Source of the DNA: Okamejei kenojei | Lineage: Eukaryota | Length of the DNA stretch: 64,000 bases | NCBI GenBank assembly: GCA_035221665.1 | Contig: CM069151.1 | Location: 19,096,001-19,160,000, forward strand | Direction: 5' to 3' | In this document: positions 21,001 to 39,000 of the stretch, piece after piece | Numbering within the stretch: the stretch's first letter is position 1 | Layout of the letters: each line of letters begins with the position of its first letter | Made by a program: the position numbers

Positions 21001-24000
21001 ATTACTTCTGTACAGACTGACCATTTGCAATGTTTAAACCTGTTTGCATAAACTAAAATTGAGGTTGGGTAGCAGAGCGCTCAATAGAAGAAAACATTTT
21101 TAAAGCAATAATTTGAAAGAAAAGGTTGAGATAGGGCAAAACTAGCTGGCATTTATTTCATAGAACATAGAACAACTAGAGAGCAATCCTGAACTACTAC
21201 CTACATTGGCGACCCTTGGATTATCTTTAATCAGACTTTACTGGTCTTTATCTTGCATTAGATTTTATCCTGTTTATCATGTATCTGTATGTTGGGTTGG
21301 AAGATTGCAACCTTCACGTGGTCCGCCCTGTTTTGACGAATGCAATCAACCCGCCGTGCACAATCAAATAAGATCAAATAGAACAAGTTGTACTGCAACT
21401 GTAGGCTGTACACTCCATATACAAGGAAAAGAAAATGTATCTGTATACTGTGGACAGTTCGATTGTAATCATATAGTCTTTCTGCTGACTGATTAGCTCG
21501 CAAGAAAACGCTTTTCACTGGCAAGCAATATGTCAAACTTTTGGAACCTCCAGCTAGAGGTGTTACAGTGTAAAATGTTTTTCTGCAATACAGAATCGAC
21601 AGCAAAGTTACTGACCACAATGACATCTACTCCCAGCTACAGAGCAGGCAGACCAACAGGTTGATTATTATCTATTTTAGTTTACTTTATTTTAGTTTAG
21701 TTTATTGTCCTGCTACATCTGGCTAATCTCAAAAATATGTTGATATATCTACCGACAGAATTGGTTTACACAGATCCAAACCCATTACTCCAGTTTTCTC
21801 TCTTTCCCTCCAAACAGCCTTCCTCACAATGTTTTCCTTTGCAGGCTGCAAATCCACCATCTGCTCTCCCTGATCTCCTTGGCAAATCTTGCCCTATCAA
21901 GTGCTGACTCTTTCAATAGATTGCCTAGCTTCTCCCATCAATGCAGTATATTGTGACATATGTGGGAATGGTCCTTCTTATCCTTTAGTTCATGATAGAT
22001 AATTCCATTAATATTGTATCCTTTGCATAATGCGGGCTAACTGAATTTGGTAACAGATTTGATAACTGAAGCTGAAGGTGACTGGGATCTGGTTAAGAAC
22101 ACAACCAGCAGAATCTTTTATAATCTCAAGATTGAAAAACAAGTGTGGGCAACCAAGTGTACAATAGAATATGCAAACCCAGCTGAAACATTGATGAGAA
22201 TATCAGCAGGGCTAGAGGGTTAGAATTGTGTGATAATACAGAGATGGAAATAAATAAATGGGAAATGTGGTGCAAGGTTCAACAGCCGTCAACCACTTAC
22301 TAGTTGTTGAACTGTTGGTTGTTGAAGTTATACGTGGCACCGTTACTGTTGATGTTGTTTCTATAAAACATAAAAGATGTCACATTTAAAGATGGTTATA
22401 ACGCATACTGTTGCTCTATGACTTTGTATCAGGTTCAACTTGTTATTTTTCATTTTCAGGATTCAGATGTCACCAGCAATACTGGCATTTATTGTCAATC
22501 CCCAAATTCCTCATATTGACGAGACAAAGGCAAAACTTTCCATGGCCAACAAGAGACATAACTGACATACCGTCTTTAAATCTCCATGACTGTGGTATGA
22601 AGACATCTCCTGTTCTTGTACAGATTGTACAATGGAAACCAATGCCACTACTGGACAGCTGCAGCCTGAGCTAAACAGCTCTGCTTAGATATATCTTACA
22701 TCCTTAACTGGAAGTTGCATTGTAGCTGTGAGAGTGGATGGAGGGTGTGCTACAAGTTAAGCTGGCCTGAGAAATTATAGACTAGTTTCACTGCTTTAAT
22801 GGTATAGTCCTCTTCAGTAATGCAAAACCCAATCTCCCATAAATCGTCACAGGTGTTGTCGATTCTGTATTGCAGAAACACATTTAACAATAAACAATTG
22901 CATTAATGCTGTACACTCAGAATAAAACTGACCTGCTCAGATTTCTTACAGGGTGTCGAAGGGTGAACGATGACTGGGACCTGGCTGAGAGCATGATAGG
23001 GAAATCAAAATAAATCAGAAGTGGGGAACAATTAAGGTGGGCAAGAGAGTTAAAGGTTCTTCATTGGGAAAAGGGATCGAAGGAGAATATTAGTGTGTTC
23101 AAGTAGATCGGTGGATGTAGAATTGCATCTGGGACAGAGACAGAGGGAAGGAGGATGGGATAGTGTATGGACGGCAGCAGAGGGAAGTCATCGGTGAGGG
23201 ATAGAATTTGAAAGAAACAATGAGAAGTAATTCCAAAGCAAATAGTTAAAAAATGCATTATCTGAGAAAGCTCAGTGAAAGTTGTACATTGCTGCTTTCT
23301 CAATGGCTCACCCAGAGTCCTTGTGCAGACAAACTTGGTGCAAGGATAAACAACCGTCAATCACTTACCAGCTGTGTAGCTGCTGGTCGATGTCGTTGTG
23401 GGTGGTACCTTTGTTGTTGTTGTTTCTGTAAAACATAAAAGATGTCACAGCAAGTTATAATGCACACTGTGGCTCGATGACCGTATCAGGTCCAACTTCT
23501 CATTTTTAATTTCAGGGTGTAGGTTCCACCACCAATGCAGGCATTTATTGTTAATTCACAATTGCCCCATGTTAAGGATGCAATTGCTCAACCTTCCATC
23601 AGCAGCCTTTTGTGTTTCCATTCATCACATTCAGTTAGATTGTCATGTTAACAATAGATTTTCTTCTTCATGTTGCCCTTTGAATTGAAACATCAATCCA
23701 ATTATGCCATCCTATCAAAGCAATCAATTGGGAAGAATAATGTGAGATAGAATCAGAGTGATATTTTGTTCAATGATGGAAGAATAAACCAGGTTCCTTT
23801 GGAGAGCAACTGTGGGCCAGAAGTACAGTAATCCCACTGTTATCTGTCTAGTTTGCTAGTAGATGGTAGTAGATGATGTTGTGGTCTGAAACTCTGTTGG
23901 TGAAGTTGTTTCTAAATGGTGATAAGGAGTGAGAGAGGGTTAAAGAAGGGAAGAGTAAGAGTTCCTCATAGGGAAAAGAACCAAGTTGAAGGATACTCTG

Positions 24001-36000: not shown

Positions 36001-39000
36001 CCACAGCTACAATTAATTCCAAAACTAATAGTTAAAAAATGCATTATCTGAGAAAGCTCAGTGAAAGTTGTACATTGCTGCTTTCTCAATGGCTCACCCA
36101 GAGTCCTTTTGCAGACAAACTTGGTGCAAGGATAAACAACCGTCAATCACTTACCAGCTGTGTAGCTGCTGGTCGATGTCGTTGTGGGTGGTACCTTTGT
36201 TGTTGTTGTTTCTGTAAAACATAAAAGATGTCACAGCAAGTTATAATGCACACTGTGGCTCGATGACCGTATCAGGTCCAACTTCTCATTTTTAATTTCA
36301 GGGTGTAGGTTCCACCACCAATGCAGGCATTTATTGTTAATTCACAATTGCCCCATGTTAAGGATGCAATTGCTCAACCTTCCATCAGCAGCCTTTTGTG
36401 TTTCCATTCATCACATTCAGTTAGATTGTCATGTTAACAATAGATTTTCTTCTTCATGTTGCCCTTTGAATTGAAACATCAATCCAATTATGCCATCCTA
36501 TCAAAGCAATCAATTGGGAAGAATAATGTGAGATAGAATCAGAGTGATATTTTGTTCAATAATGGAAGAATAAACCAGGTTCCTTTGGAGAGCAACTGTG
36601 GGCCAGAAGTACAGTAATCCCACTGTTATCTGTCTAGTTTGCTAGTAGATGGTAGTAGATGATGTTGTGGTCTGAAACTCTGTTGGTGAAGTTGTTTCTA
36701 AATGGTGATAAGGAGTGAGAGAGGGTTAAAGAAGGGAAGAGTAAGAGTTCCTCATAGGGAAAAGAACCAAGTTGAAGGATACTCTGTACTTTAGATCAGT
36801 GGCTTGAGAATTGCTGCTGCAAATAGACAGAGGGAAGGAGGATGGGAGAGTTTATGGACCGCAGCAGAAGGACGTCGTCGGTGAGGGCTAGAATTTTAAG
36901 AAACTGAGAAGTAGCGTGGCCAAATGAAGGGCGGGAATTAATGGAAAGAATATGGGCTGGATAGTTTGTACAGAGTTCATTAGAGGGGAAACTTGATGGA
37001 TTGAAATGCATGTGGAACTCTCACTGAAACATAATAAAATTCCAAATGCCCCTTCAATAAAAGATAGTTTCCTTGCACATAACTGGCATATTTACCAGAA
37101 ATTGTTGTTGTTGATGTTGTACTTGAAGTTGTTGTTGCTACATACTCATAGCAAATTCGAATTTGATAGTCAAGACAGATGTTGACTTCCTCCAATGAAT
37201 CATCGGAGACTCTGCAGACCAGTCCTACGACTGGGTCACAGGTCACATTGTCTGGTGATTCACTTATTGGCCACTCAGGATAATGGACAAATTGGCATCC
37301 TATCAAAGCAATTGCCACAAAGAGTCGCCACACTGACGGTTACCAATGCCTGAAACAGTCCGTTCTGTATAATGTCTCAGGACCCTGCCATCATGATGCA
37401 CCAAGATCTAATAAGAACTTAGTCATCAACCTTGCCCCATTCCCAGTCTCCTTATTTCTATTCTTGATTGTGCTTACAAACCTGGTCTACACTGGCCAGC
37501 CTCTGTGTCGGCACCTGCTTCTGTGAAAATTATCACCTCCTGCTCTCTAACTCCAGGCAACTTTGGCCTCGTCTTTGGCTGAAGATCTCAGCAGTGATTC
37601 CACCACTGACCAGATGCACCATGCACCACCGAGCTGAACTACTAGATGCACGATTGAGCAGAACTTCTAGCTCACTAATTGGGGCGCACTGCTGTCTCAA
37701 TGCATTCAATGTATTTTTGAAACTGAGGAGATGATGCTTTAGTCAAAATATACAATCTTGGGATAAGTAATGAATCTCTGCAGCAACTCATGTACATTGC
37801 TAGATAATCTGTCAATTGGTCACAACTCTCTTTAAGAAGTTGGTTATGGTGCATATCAGCTCCTACCTCAACAAGAACCTCGACCCATTACAGTTTGCCT
37901 ATCATCACAATAGGTCCACGGAGGATCCGATCTCACTAGCTATCCACTCCGCACTGGACCACTTGGACAATATAACACTTACGTCAGGTTGTTGTTTATA
38001 GACTACAGCTCGGCGTTCTATACCATCATCCCCTGCAAGCTGGTTACCAAGCTCACGGAATTGGGTCTCTGTGCATCCCTCTGCAATTGGATCCTCAACT
38101 TCCTCATTCACAGACCATAGTCTGTTCGAATTGGCTGAAATACTTAATCCTCAGTAACAATCAGAACGGGAGCACCACAAGGTTGCATGCTCAGCCCCCT
38201 ACTCTACTCACTCTATACTCATGACTGTGAAGCCGGACACAGTGCAAACTCCATCTTCAAGTTCATCAATGACACCACTGTTGTGGGACGAATTACAGAT
38301 GGTGATGAATCAGAGTATGGAAGTGAGATTGACCGATTATCCAAATAGTGCCAGCACAACAACAAGGCTCACAATATCTGTAAAACCAAAGAAATGATTG
38401 TGGACTTTGGAAGAGGAAGGATGAGGACCCACAATCCTGTTTATATCAATGGGACGATGGTGGAGAGAATCAAAAACTTCAAATTCCTGGGCGTGCATAT
38501 TTCCGAAGATCTTTGCTGGGCCCAGCACACTGATGCAATATTAATGAAAGCACATCAGAGCCTTTACTTCTTGAAAAGGTTACAGAGATTCGGTATGTCA
38601 AAGAGGATTCTCTTGAACTTCTACAGGTGCACAGTAGAGAGCATATTGACTGGCTGCATCATGGCCTGGTTGGGCAACGTGAACATCCAGGAGCAGAAAA
38701 GTTTGCAAAAAGTTGTGAACACTGCCCAGTCCATCACTGGCTCTGATGTCCCCACCATTGATGGGATTTATCAAAGTCGCTGCCTCAAAAAGGGAGCCAG
38801 CATCAACAGAGACCTACACCATCCTGGCCACACACTCATTTCACCACTGCCGTCAGGAAGAAGGTACAGGAGCCTGAAAAATGTAACTTCCAGGTTCAGG
38901 AACAGCTTCTTCCCTACAGCCATCAGGCTATTAAACACTACATCCTCCTATAAGCTCTGAACTACAATAGACTATTATAATTAATATTGCACTATTATTG

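What the first reader, a model, noticed from the sequence alone, without database searches (positions are those of the whole stretch)
23229..37298. Mucin core built by recent amplification of a whole 1.83 kb intron-exon cassette, giving a CysD beads-on-a-string protein
Seen: ~7.7 copies with introns about as identical as exons; each encodes a ~113-aa acidic CysD exon plus a 19-aa PTS exon, all phase 1-1. The spliced product alternates CysD domains with only ~35-aa Thr-rich linkers. Established: human MUC5AC/MUC5B keep their CysD/PTS centre largely in one large exon. I recall multi-exon cassette arrays in chicken MUC2 and Xenopus integumentary mucins, so the principle has precedent. Inference: copy number varies between alleles, and exon skipping could tune the number of CysD cross-linking units per molecule.
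Basis: partly seen in the sequence, partly recalled or inferred. Interest (0 to 1): 0.75.

Follow-up and report, generated by a model that had tools for sequence, protein, structure and literature searches.

The report
Recently amplified CysD–linker exon cassettes in mucin
A gel-forming mucin gene on the minus strand carries about eight near-identical 1.83 kb copies of a two-exon cassette (a cysteine-rich CysD domain plus a short sugar-bearing linker), a real and tidy example of a known way in which mucus proteins grow.

Summary
Window 23225-37298 is a head-to-tail array with a period of 1814-1830 nt: 7 full units plus 0.71 of an eighth, 99.0-99.9% identical. Each unit holds a 342-nt exon and a 57-nt Thr-rich exon, both phase 1-1. 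The 342-nt exon is a CysD domain: Pfam PF13330, E 1.3e-14, best solved relative human MUC5B CysD at about 39% identity. Introns are at least as alike as exons: 12 variable columns in 1431 intron nt against 9 in 399 exon nt. VWD/C8/TIL exons flank the array on the same strand, so it sits in the core of a MUC2/MUC5-type mucin.

New caveats:
- The 5'-most CysD exon is cut at 37298 by a LINE-like fragment, with an N run 1.8 kb further on.
- One CysD exon has lost its acceptor through a 16-bp deletion.
- The last, non-array CysD exon has a 1-nt frameshift.

Precedents exist (chicken MUC2, DMBT1, human MUC5AC). Allelic copy number and exon skipping remain untested. Interest is moderate.

The parts
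23225..37298 (-). Tandem array of the 1.83 kb CysD-PTS cassette: 7 full units plus unit positions 1-1305 of an eighth
   Evidence: period 1814-1830 nt; pairwise identity 99.0-99.9% among full units
37096..37298 (-). Truncated CysD exon of the 5'-most copy (3' 203 nt only; no native acceptor)
   Evidence: homology to the unit stops abruptly at 37298; tblastn matches only residues 39-113
35268..35609 (-). CysD exon, unit 7, 342 nt, phase 1-1
33439..33780 (-). CysD exon, unit 6, 342 nt; first full codon Trp changed to Arg
31625..31966 (-). CysD exon, unit 5; a 16-bp deletion between two GGCT repeats removed the polypyrimidine tract and the AG acceptor
29795..30136 (-). CysD exon, unit 4 (reference copy), 342 nt, phase 1-1; acceptor ..TTTTCCAG, donor GTAAAT
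   Evidence: PF13330, E 1.3e-14; MUC5B CysD 8oer, E 5.8e-14
27968..28306 (-). CysD exon, unit 3, 339 nt (one Ser codon fewer in the Thr-rich tail)
26137..26478 (-). CysD exon, unit 2, 342 nt
24310..24648 (-). CysD exon, unit 1, 339 nt
36155..36211 (-). PTS exon, 57 nt, phase 1-1 (unit 8). The same exon is at 34326-34382, 32498-32554, 30684-30740, 28854-28910, 27026-27082, 25196-25252 (Thr to Ile variant) and 23369-23425
   Evidence: the 25196-25252 position is derived from the gap-free offset of unit 2 to unit 4
37299..39071 (+). 5'-truncated LINE-like retroelement fragment abutting the broken CysD exon
   Evidence: frameshifted RT-like ORFs (RVT_1 E 6.4e-4, below Pfam's cut-off; PF09004 E 1.8e-9); no other copy in the window
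39072..39219 (.). Run of 148 N, left unfilled; flanked by simple sequence
39582..39626 (-). Candidate older, diverged PTS exon (45 nt, phase 1-1, weak donor GTACTC) above the N run
   Evidence: 39404-39668 matches unit positions 19-260 at 62%
22301..22360 (-). Older diverged PTS exon (60 nt, phase 1-1) just 3' of the array
   Evidence: 22263-22543 matches unit 124-392 at 74%; 23014-23229 matches unit 715-920 at 75%
47632..47700 (-). First PTS exon after the D3 region (69 nt, phase 1-1)
19441..19500 (-). Diverged PTS exon (60 nt, phase 1-1)
17864..18391 (-). Large PTS exon (528 nt, phase 1-1, 90% Thr/Ser/Pro) with internal 9-15 nt periodicity
   Evidence: (family D1)
16778..16834 (-). PTS exon (57 nt, phase 1-1)
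15175..15562 (-). Last, non-array CysD exon, with an apparent 1-nt frameshift near 15481 and a stop at 15443-15441 in the entering frame
49447..62556 (-). Upstream VWD / C8 / TIL exons of the same gene (D2-D3 side)
2764..13015 (-). Downstream VWD4 / C8 / TIL-like / Cys-rich exons of the same gene

Best explanation
The window holds most of a MUC2/MUC5-type gel-forming mucin gene on the minus strand, and its central region is built from many small phase 1-1 exons instead of one large exon. One two-exon cassette is present as 8 head-to-tail copies of 1.83 kb that are 99.0-99.9% identical, introns included. The cassette is a CysD exon of 113 codons plus a 19-codon Thr-rich exon.

How the array arose. 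That level of identity means a recent burst of unequal crossing-over or replication slippage, with continuing exchange between copies (concerted evolution). It is not selection holding the coding parts alike. It is the latest of several rounds, because older copies of the linker exon with their flanking intron, 62-75% identical, lie on both sides.

The predicted product (inferred). If spliced as the sites predict, the product carries 6-7 acidic CysD domains separated by O-glycosylatable linkers of about 34 aa, a beads-on-a-string core. It is followed by a 176-codon PTS exon and a last CysD.

Likely function (inferred from published work on mammalian CysD). The domains act as reversible, non-covalent cross-linkers between mucin polymers, so their number sets mesh size and stiffness of the mucus.

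Consequences of the exon phases (inferred). Every exon is phase 1-1, so gain, loss or skipping of any cassette keeps the reading frame. The copy whose acceptor is deleted should simply be skipped.
For: Array:
- Searches give the period, the 7.7 copies and 99.0-99.9% identity.

Exons and phases:
- Searches show canonical AG/GT sites in 6 of 7 full CysD exons.
- One search listed 7 of the 8 PTS exons with canonical sites. The eighth, in unit 2, escaped the anchor pattern because of its one substitution and was placed by offset.

CysD identity:
- PF13330 at 55.1 bits against a cut-off of 22.4.
- Human MUC5B CysD 8oer at E 5.8e-14, with 36 of 93 aligned positions identical by my count of the printed alignment; MUC2 CysD 8s03 at E 5.9e-12.
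- A WxxW motif is present.

No excess exon conservation:
- 9 of 399 exon columns are variable against 12 of 1431 intron columns.
- By my reading of the codons, 6 exon changes are non-synonymous and 3 synonymous.

Exchange between copies:
- Units 1 and 3 share a 3-bp deletion and a substitution 26 nt away that unit 2 lacks. Unit 3 also shares another variant with unit 4.
- Edge units are the most diverged (unit 1 at 99.0%).

Same gene:
- VWD, C8 and TIL exons lie upstream, and VWD4 (profile positions 1-76 and 76-143 in two successive ORFs) and C8 lie downstream, all on the same strand.
- Five further phase 1-1 PTS exons were found between them.
- The non-array CysD is fused in one exon to C-terminal Cys-rich sequence.

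Older rounds of duplication:
-.

Function, by analogy:
- The MUC2 CysD forms non-covalent dimers proposed to set pore size (PMC3195396, passages).
- A secreted molecule of 12 consecutive CYS domains made mouse gut mucus more robust (PMC4431476, abstract and passages).
Against: - No transcript or protein evidence is available, so exon use is predicted from splice sites only.
- The 5'-most CysD exon is cut at 37298 by a LINE-like fragment, and its 5' half is nowhere in the window.
- One CysD exon lacks an acceptor, and another begins with Arg instead of Trp.
- The downstream CysD exon has a 1-nt frameshift. If real, it stops translation before VWD4.
- Exon variants are 6 non-synonymous to 3 synonymous and denser than intron variants, as expected under relaxed constraint.
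- The domain has 8 Cys, not the 10 reported as invariant in higher organisms (PMC4431476), so the cross-linking behaviour of mammalian CysD may not carry over.
- An N run 1.8 kb from the array edge means the assembled copy number is uncertain.
- The exon linking the D3 side (phase 2 donor at 49447) to the first PTS exon was not found.
Confidence: 0.7

Rival explanations
1. Pseudogene or null allele. The mucin gene is no longer functional in this haplotype, and the array is neutrally evolving DNA whose copies are starting to decay.
For: - 1-nt frameshift with a stop at 15443-15441 in the last CysD exon.
- The top CysD exon is broken by a LINE-like fragment.
- The acceptor is deleted in unit 5, and unit 6 has Trp changed to Arg.
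- Exon variants are denser than intron variants and 6:3 non-synonymous to synonymous.
Against: - Every other inspected exon keeps an open frame and its conserved Cys pattern. VWD4 is covered contiguously by two ORFs downstream of the frameshift, and C8 and TIL matches are above or near the Pfam cut-offs.
- The frameshift is a single missing base in a short A run and could be an assembly error. Premature stops in 16 of 206 human MUC5B assemblies were suspected by their authors to be assembly artefacts (PMC10983947, passage).
- Loss of single cassettes is tolerated because all exons are phase 1-1.
Confidence: 0.2
2. Assembly artefact in copy number. A real but smaller or larger array was expanded, collapsed or misjoined by the assembler, and the abrupt edge at 37298 is a misjoin rather than a retroelement insertion.
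For: - Units are 99.6-99.9% identical over 14 kb, which is hard to assemble.
- A 148-N run lies 1.8 kb from the upper edge.
- The 5' half of the broken CysD exon is absent from the window.
Against: - Each unit carries its own variants: 21 substitution columns and 4 indels spread over all 8 units. Copies generated from the same reads would not show this.
- The lower junction is a clean, interpretable old duplication junction.
- Spacings are regular.
Confidence: 0.2
3. An old array kept uniform. The cassettes are ancient and their identity, introns included, is maintained by continuous gene conversion or unequal exchange rather than by a recent burst of amplification.
For: - Mosaic sharing of variants between non-adjacent units, and more diverged edge units.
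- CYS domains are said to have evolved in a concerted manner (PMC4431476, passage).
Against: - This cannot be separated from recent amplification with one genome.
- Older linker-exon copies just outside the array have diverged to 62-75% without being homogenised.
Confidence: 0.3
4. A separate gene. The array belongs to a CysD-only secreted protein, like the fish lateral-line 'Mucin-5AC' with up to 27 CysD in a skate, lying between two halves of VWD-coding sequence.
For: CysD-only proteins with 19 and 27 CysD are listed for a catshark and a skate (PMC11765562, passages and Table 1).
Against: - The array shares strand and phase with the flanking PTS exons.
- The VWD3 side needs a PTS/CysD centre to reach the VWD4 side.
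- No signal-peptide or terminal exon was seen around the array.
- A CysD 39-47% identical to the array's sits in one exon with C-terminal mucin sequence.
Confidence: 0.07

Closest known systems
Chicken MUC2 central region (PMC3549977; passages read)
   Same: A gel-forming mucin whose PTS/CysD centre is spread over many exons. Ten 69-aa repeats span exons 32-45 with CysD domains interspersed, and the gene has at least 64 exons.
   Different: The chicken repeats are PTS units with 4 CysD in about 1600 aa. Here CysD dominates, with linkers of only about 34 aa. Whether the chicken introns are near-identical was not stated in the passages I read.
Human MUC5AC / MUC5B (PMC10983947 and PMC9712336; passages)
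   Same: CysD domains alternate with PTS stretches. Several CysD copies are nearly identical within a gene. The number of cys domains differs between human MUC5AC haplotypes. The best solved relative of the array CysD is a MUC5B CysD.
   Different: In humans the whole centre lies in one large exon (60-80% of the coding sequence), and the PTS stretches are long VNTRs. Here each domain and each linker is its own exon, and the repeat unit includes 1.4 kb of intron.
DMBT1 (gp340 / salivary agglutinin) SRCR-SID units (PMC3100851; passages)
   Same: The closest match in gene architecture. A Cys-rich domain of about 100-110 aa on a single exon alternates with a 20-24 aa Ser/Thr-rich, O-glycosylated spacer. 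The units are tandem, and there are 8 to 13 depending on the allele.
   Different: The domain family differs (SRCR, not CysD), and DMBT1 is not a VWD polymer. Allelic variation is shown for DMBT1 and is only inferred here.
Engineered 12 x CYS-domain molecule in transgenic mice (PMC4431476; abstract and passages)
   Same: Many consecutive CysD domains with little mucin sequence between them. It made the mucus gel more robust.
   Different: It is artificial, free-standing and derived from a mammalian 10-Cys domain. The array here is natural, sits inside a VWD mucin and has 8 Cys per domain.
CysD-only 'Mucin-5AC' of the fish lateral-line cupula (PMC11765562; passages and Table 1)
   Same: Chains of CysD domains, with 27 in a skate and 19 in a catshark.
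   Different: Those proteins are described as lacking VWD and PTS domains and as having five conserved Cys. Their sequences could not be compared here.
LPA kringle IV-2 repeat (recalled, no call)
   Same: A two-exon, intron-containing cassette amplified in tandem with near-identical copies and large allelic copy-number variation.
   Different: An unrelated domain and protein class. Recalled from memory only.

Membership tests
CysD domain (Pfam PF13330, Mucin2_WxxW) | Profile match above the curated cut-off | tested here: met
   55.1 bits against a cut-off of 22.4, E 1.3e-14, covering profile positions 1-87 of 88
CysD domain (Pfam PF13330, Mucin2_WxxW) | WxxW motif near the N-terminus | tested here: met
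   W-S-A-W at residues 7-10 of the exon translation in all 7 full copies, aligned to the same motif of MUC5B and MUC2 CysD
CysD domain, mammalian subtype | Ten invariant Cys forming five intradomain disulfides (PMC4431476; PMC3195396) | tested here: not met
   8 Cys per exon. Only one Cys precedes the WxxW motif, and the C-terminal Cys-Cys pair is a single Cys. The window's last CysD also has 8 by my count. It therefore belongs to the CysD family but not to the 10-Cys subtype.
CysD domain (Pfam PF13330, Mucin2_WxxW) | Non-covalent self-association | not testable with these tools
   Needs recombinant protein
MUC2/MUC5-type gel-forming mucin | VWD-C8-TIL units on the N-terminal side | tested here: met
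   C8 62395-62556, TIL 58817-59128 and 57716-57889, VWD 56418-56666 and 51248-51586, C8 51006-51194, all on the minus strand. The window starts inside the gene, so D1 is not seen.
MUC2/MUC5-type gel-forming mucin | Central PTS sequence with interspersed CysD | tested here: met
   Phase 1-1 PTS exons with 58-90% Thr/Ser/Pro, plus 8 array CysD exons and 1 non-array CysD
MUC2/MUC5-type gel-forming mucin | Fourth VWD-C8 unit after the centre | tested here: met
   VWD 12320-12616 (profile positions 1-76) and 9753-10028 (76-143); C8 7549-7947
MUC2/MUC5-type gel-forming mucin | C-terminal cystine knot | not tested
   Cys-rich ORFs down to 2764 gave no Pfam match. The knot may lie beyond the window.
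MUC2/MUC5-type gel-forming mucin | Uninterrupted reading frame | tested here: inconclusive
   1-nt frameshift in the last CysD exon. A real mutation cannot be told from an assembly error.
Mammalian mucin gene layout | CysD/PTS centre in one large exon | tested here: not met
   At least 21 separate small exons: 8 PTS and 7 full CysD in the array, 5 further PTS exons and the last CysD. The truncated top CysD exon and the 45-nt candidate at 39.6 kb come on top of these.
Intragenic multi-exon cassette repeat (DMBT1 SRCR-SID type) | Repeat unit contains whole exons plus their introns, with introns as alike as exons | tested here: met
Intragenic multi-exon cassette repeat (DMBT1 SRCR-SID type) | Symmetric exon phases, so that copy gain or loss keeps the frame | tested here: met
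   All array exons are phase 1-1
Intragenic multi-exon cassette repeat (DMBT1 SRCR-SID type) | Copy number differs between alleles | not testable with these tools
   Only one assembled haplotype is available

The most novel reading that the evidence does not exclude
This would be a natural poly-CysD gel-forming mucin in which the number of cross-linking domains is set at two levels. The first is germline gain and loss of a frame-neutral intron-exon cassette. The second is in-frame skipping of individual cassettes, of which the copy with the deleted acceptor would be a fixed example.

The excess of exon over intron variation would then reflect diversifying selection on CysD surfaces, as proposed for pathogen-binding repeats such as DMBT1. 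That would give a natural dose series for testing whether CysD number sets mucus mesh size.
Probability: 0.12. Interest if true: 0.6.

Novelty: new variant of a known kind. Interest (0 to 1): 0.35.

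Why it matters
Whether CysD domains act as the reversible cross-links that set mucus pore size is still argued mainly from recombinant fragments and one transgenic construct. A natural mucin with 6-8 nearly identical CysD domains and only short glycosylated linkers would help, because each domain sits on its own frame-neutral exon. It would offer naturally occurring variants (alleles, skipped exons) for testing that idea.

It also shows that the single giant central exon of mammalian mucins is not the only layout. 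The same protein plan can be grown by amplifying whole intron-exon cassettes, as in DMBT1.

For genome annotation it is a warning. Such arrays are easily collapsed or mis-modelled, and a gene model here needs long reads and long transcripts.

Tried and rejected
- TRF found nothing, because its longest period is 500 nt. The repeat finder and blastn were used instead.
- AlphaFold2 on the single CysD exon without an alignment gave a poor, partly helical model (mean pLDDT 62). I did not use it and did not run a fold search on it.
- Complex prediction with two copies of the CysD core returned 'no answer' (score 0.00). It counts neither for nor against self-association.
I did not resend it, so C-terminal integrity rests on single-ORF Pfam and PDB matches only.
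- A search for the missing 5' half of the broken CysD exon found none. tblastn at E <= 10 and blastn with word size 7 both failed.
- No inverted or direct repeats flank the LINE-like fragment.
- Rfam gave no match at gathering thresholds anywhere in the window.
- MUC2 against MUC5 orthology could not be decided. The VWD3 exon scores about equally to MUC5AC, MUC5B and MUC2, at E 1e-33 to 2e-31.
- Xenopus integumentary-mucin exon structure: the search found only an incidental mention.
- No paper describing near-identical intron-containing CysD cassettes in a gel-forming mucin turned up. The library lacks most subscription journals, and supplements were closed.
- The organism could not be determined. 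No eukaryotic sequence collection was available.

Full report
**1. The observation**

- A reference unit (28693-30522) matches the window at 23225-25034, at six further full units, and at 35994-37298, which covers only unit positions 1-1305. Each match is 98.9-99.8% identical (blastn).
- Start-to-start spacings are 1827, 1830, 1828, 1830, 1814, 1828 and 1829 nt.
- 11,435 repeated 20-mers lie at offsets of 1814-1830 nt.
- Pairwise identity among the seven full units is 99.0-99.9%, and the lowest-coordinate unit is the most diverged.
- Tandem Repeats Finder missed the array only because its longest period is 500 nt.

**2. Anatomy of one unit**

The coding strand is the minus strand. In the reference unit a 342-nt exon (30136..29795) has a strong acceptor and a GTAAAT donor. 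A 57-nt exon (28910..28854) has a strong acceptor and a GTAAGT donor. Both start with two bases that complete a codon and end with one base of the next, so both are phase 1-1.

The large exon:
- It gives 113 full codons, with pI 4.2, 15 acidic against 5 basic residues and 8 Cys.
- It matches Pfam PF13330 (Mucin2_WxxW, the CysD domain) at 55.1 bits against a cut-off of 22.4.
- Its best solved relatives are a human MUC5B CysD (8oer, E 5.8e-14; 36 of 93 aligned positions identical by my count) and MUC2 CysD domains.
- At about 39% identity to the human domains, I do not take the window for human.

The small exon is 18 full codons, mostly Thr, Ser and Pro.

The last 14 residues of the CysD exon are also Thr/Ser-rich.

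I searched the model exon by exon. I did not build, print or search a joined (spliced) protein, so nothing here rests on a joined sequence.

**3. Copies compared**

Aligning all eight copies gave 21 substitution columns and 4 indels.
- Nine substitution columns fall in the 399 exon positions and 12 in the 1431 intron positions.
- Exons are therefore, if anything, more variable: odds ratio 2.7, Fisher p = 0.03. The p value is 0.06 if an adjacent double change counts once, and 0.08 if indels are included.
- Reading the codons, six exon changes alter the protein and three do not.
- So the likeness of the copies is due to recency or homogenisation, not to selection on the coding parts.

There is evidence of exchange between copies.
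- Units 1 and 3 share a 3-bp in-frame deletion and a substitution 26 nt away that unit 2, which lies between them, lacks.
- Unit 3 shares another variant with unit 4.
- These mosaics point to exchange between copies, and the more diverged edge units fit unequal exchange in the array's interior.

**4. Defects in individual copies**

- The copy at the 5' end of the array (in gene direction) stops being homologous at 37298, in the middle of its CysD exon. Only the 3' 203 nt remain (37298..37096). The 5' half is not found anywhere else in the window.
- The adjoining 37299-39071 carries frameshifted reverse-transcriptase-like ORFs on the plus strand. RVT_1 scores E 6.4e-4, below Pfam's cut-off, and PF09004 scores E 1.8e-9. 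I read it as a 5'-truncated LINE. A run of 148 N flanked by simple sequence follows, which I left unfilled.
- In unit 5 a 16-bp deletion between two GGCT repeats removed the polypyrimidine tract and the AG of the CysD exon's acceptor.
- In unit 6 the first full codon is Arg instead of Trp.
- So 6 of the 7 full CysD exons have canonical sites. One search listed 7 of the 8 linker exons with canonical sites. The eighth, in unit 2, has one substitution that made my anchor pattern miss it, and I placed it by offset.

**5. Surroundings**

The array lies inside a gel-forming mucin gene that fills the window on the minus strand.
- Upstream: C8 (62395-62556), TIL (58817-59128, 57716-57889), VWD (56418-56666, 51248-51586) and C8 (51006-51194).
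- Downstream: VWD (12320-12616 and 9753-10028, covering profile positions 1-76 and 76-143), C8 (7549-7947) and further Cys-rich ORFs.
- The VWD exon of the D3 side scores about equally to MUC5AC, MUC5B and MUC2, so I call the gene MUC2/MUC5-type without choosing.

Between these blocks, all exons I could find are phase 1-1 PTS exons:
- 47700-47632.
- A weak candidate at 39626-39582.
- 22360-22301.
- 19500-19441.
- A large one at 18391-17864 (528 nt).
- 16834-16778.

A last CysD exon starts at 15562 and continues into C-terminal Cys-rich sequence. Its CysD is 39-47% identical to the array's.

Two gaps in the gene model remain:
- That last exon has a 1-nt frameshift near 15481, at a short A run, with a stop at 15443-15441 in the entering frame. 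Whether it is a mutation or an assembly error cannot be told here.
- The D3-side exon ending at 49447 has a phase 2 donor, so at least one linking exon was not identified.

**6. History of the locus**

- Just 3' of the array, 23014-23229 matches unit positions 715-920 (75%) and 22263-22543 matches positions 124-392 (74%). The second includes a diverged linker exon.
- The junction with the array at about 23229 is clean.
- Above the N run, 39404-39668 matches unit positions 19-260 at 62%.
- The linker exons at 19.5 kb and the 3' end of the large PTS exon also match the unit's linker exon with some flanking intron, at about 70%.
- The centre of this gene has therefore grown by repeated duplication of exon-plus-intron pieces. 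The 1.83 kb array is the latest round.

**7. How it most likely works**

Shown:
- The array, its exons and phases.
- The CysD identity.
- The mucin context.
- The lack of excess exon conservation.

Inferred:
- The exons are spliced in series, giving 6-7 acidic CysD domains on short O-glycosylated spacers.
- These domains act as reversible cross-links between mucin polymers. This rests on published work. The MUC2 CysD forms non-covalent dimers proposed to set pore size (PMC3195396, passages). A secreted chain of 12 CYS domains made mouse gut mucus more robust (PMC4431476, abstract and passages).
- Cassette gain, loss or skipping is frame-neutral because every exon is phase 1-1. This follows directly from the phases. 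That it happens is not shown.

One reason for caution: the domain has 8 Cys, not the 10 said to be invariant in higher organisms.

**8. Rivals**

- Pseudogene or null allele (about 0.2). The frameshift, the broken top copy, the lost acceptor and the 6:3 non-synonymous ratio fit it. The intact, conserved VWD4, C8 and TIL exons downstream do not. Premature stops in human MUC5B assemblies were suspected by their authors to be artefacts (PMC10983947).
- Wrong copy number in the assembly (about 0.2). Units this alike and a nearby N run make it possible. Unit-specific variants in all eight units argue that the copies are distinct.
- An old array kept uniform by conversion (about 0.3, and not exclusive of the main reading). 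One genome cannot decide this.
- A separate CysD-only gene like the fish cupula protein (about 0.07). Strand, phase and context argue against it.

**9. Comparison with what is known**

- Human MUC5AC and MUC5B keep the centre in one large exon, and the number of cys domains varies between MUC5AC haplotypes (PMC10983947, passages; reference title in PMC9712336).
- The chicken MUC2 repeat region spans exons 32-45 with CysD domains between blocks (PMC3549977, passages). A multi-exon mucin centre is therefore already known.
- The closest match in gene architecture is DMBT1. It has a single-exon Cys-rich domain of about 100-110 aa alternating with 20-24 aa O-glycosylated Ser/Thr spacers, in 8-13 units depending on the allele (PMC3100851, passages).
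- Chains of up to 27 CysD are listed for a skate protein without VWD domains (PMC11765562, passages and Table 1).
- Mucins with up to 25 CYS domains are mentioned in PMC4431476.
- I found no paper describing near-identical intron-containing CysD-linker cassettes in a VWD mucin. The library is incomplete and supplements were closed.

**10. Verdict**

The structural interpretation holds at the DNA level, with the added caveats above. The claims about alleles and splicing are reasonable but untested. It is a new variant of known kinds: mucin CysD/PTS repeats and DMBT1-like cassette arrays. It would not surprise a mucin specialist much, but it offers a neat natural system for testing what CysD number does.

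The organism could not be identified with the tools at hand.

Noticed in passing
window 15441-15562 (-): The last, non-array CysD exon changes frame by one base near 15481, at a short A run, and meets a stop at 15443-15441. The CysD continues in another frame. It is either a null allele or an assembly indel.
   Followed up: partly
window 37299-39071 (+) and 39072-39219: A LINE-like fragment with frameshifted RT ORFs abuts the broken CysD exon. It is followed by 148 N flanked by simple sequence. At the junction an AG is followed by two bases in the CysD frame, so a cryptic phase-1 acceptor is conceivable.
   Followed up: partly
window 10656-11400 (+) and 41099-41830 (+): Two copies of a repeat, 93.6% identical over 748 nt, whose ORFs give a weak GIY-YIG match (E about 5e-4, just under Pfam's cut-off). 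From memory this looks like the endonuclease end of a Penelope-like element. Both lie in introns of the mucin gene.
   Followed up: partly
window 59164-60619 (-) and 43358-44393 (+): A reverse-transcriptase ORF pair (RVT_1 E 9e-14 and 4.5e-10), and a 77% identical fragment in the opposite orientation in the 10 kb intron above the array.
   Followed up: partly
window 17864-18391 (-): A large PTS exon of 528 nt, 90% Thr/Ser/Pro, with an internal 9-15 nt periodicity (35 overlapping copies in the repeat finder family D1). Its 3' end and donor region resemble the array's small linker exon at about 70%, suggesting it grew from such an exon.
   Followed up: partly
window 47700-49447 (-): The D3-side exon ending at 49447 has a phase 2 donor, while the next recognised exon (47700) has a phase 1 acceptor. 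At least one linking exon is missing from my model.
   Followed up: no
window 40211-40291 and 22171-22251 (+): An 81-nt stretch is shared at 83% between the intron above the array and the region just below the diverged linker exon. It is either a small dispersed repeat or a remnant of an older cassette.
   Followed up: no
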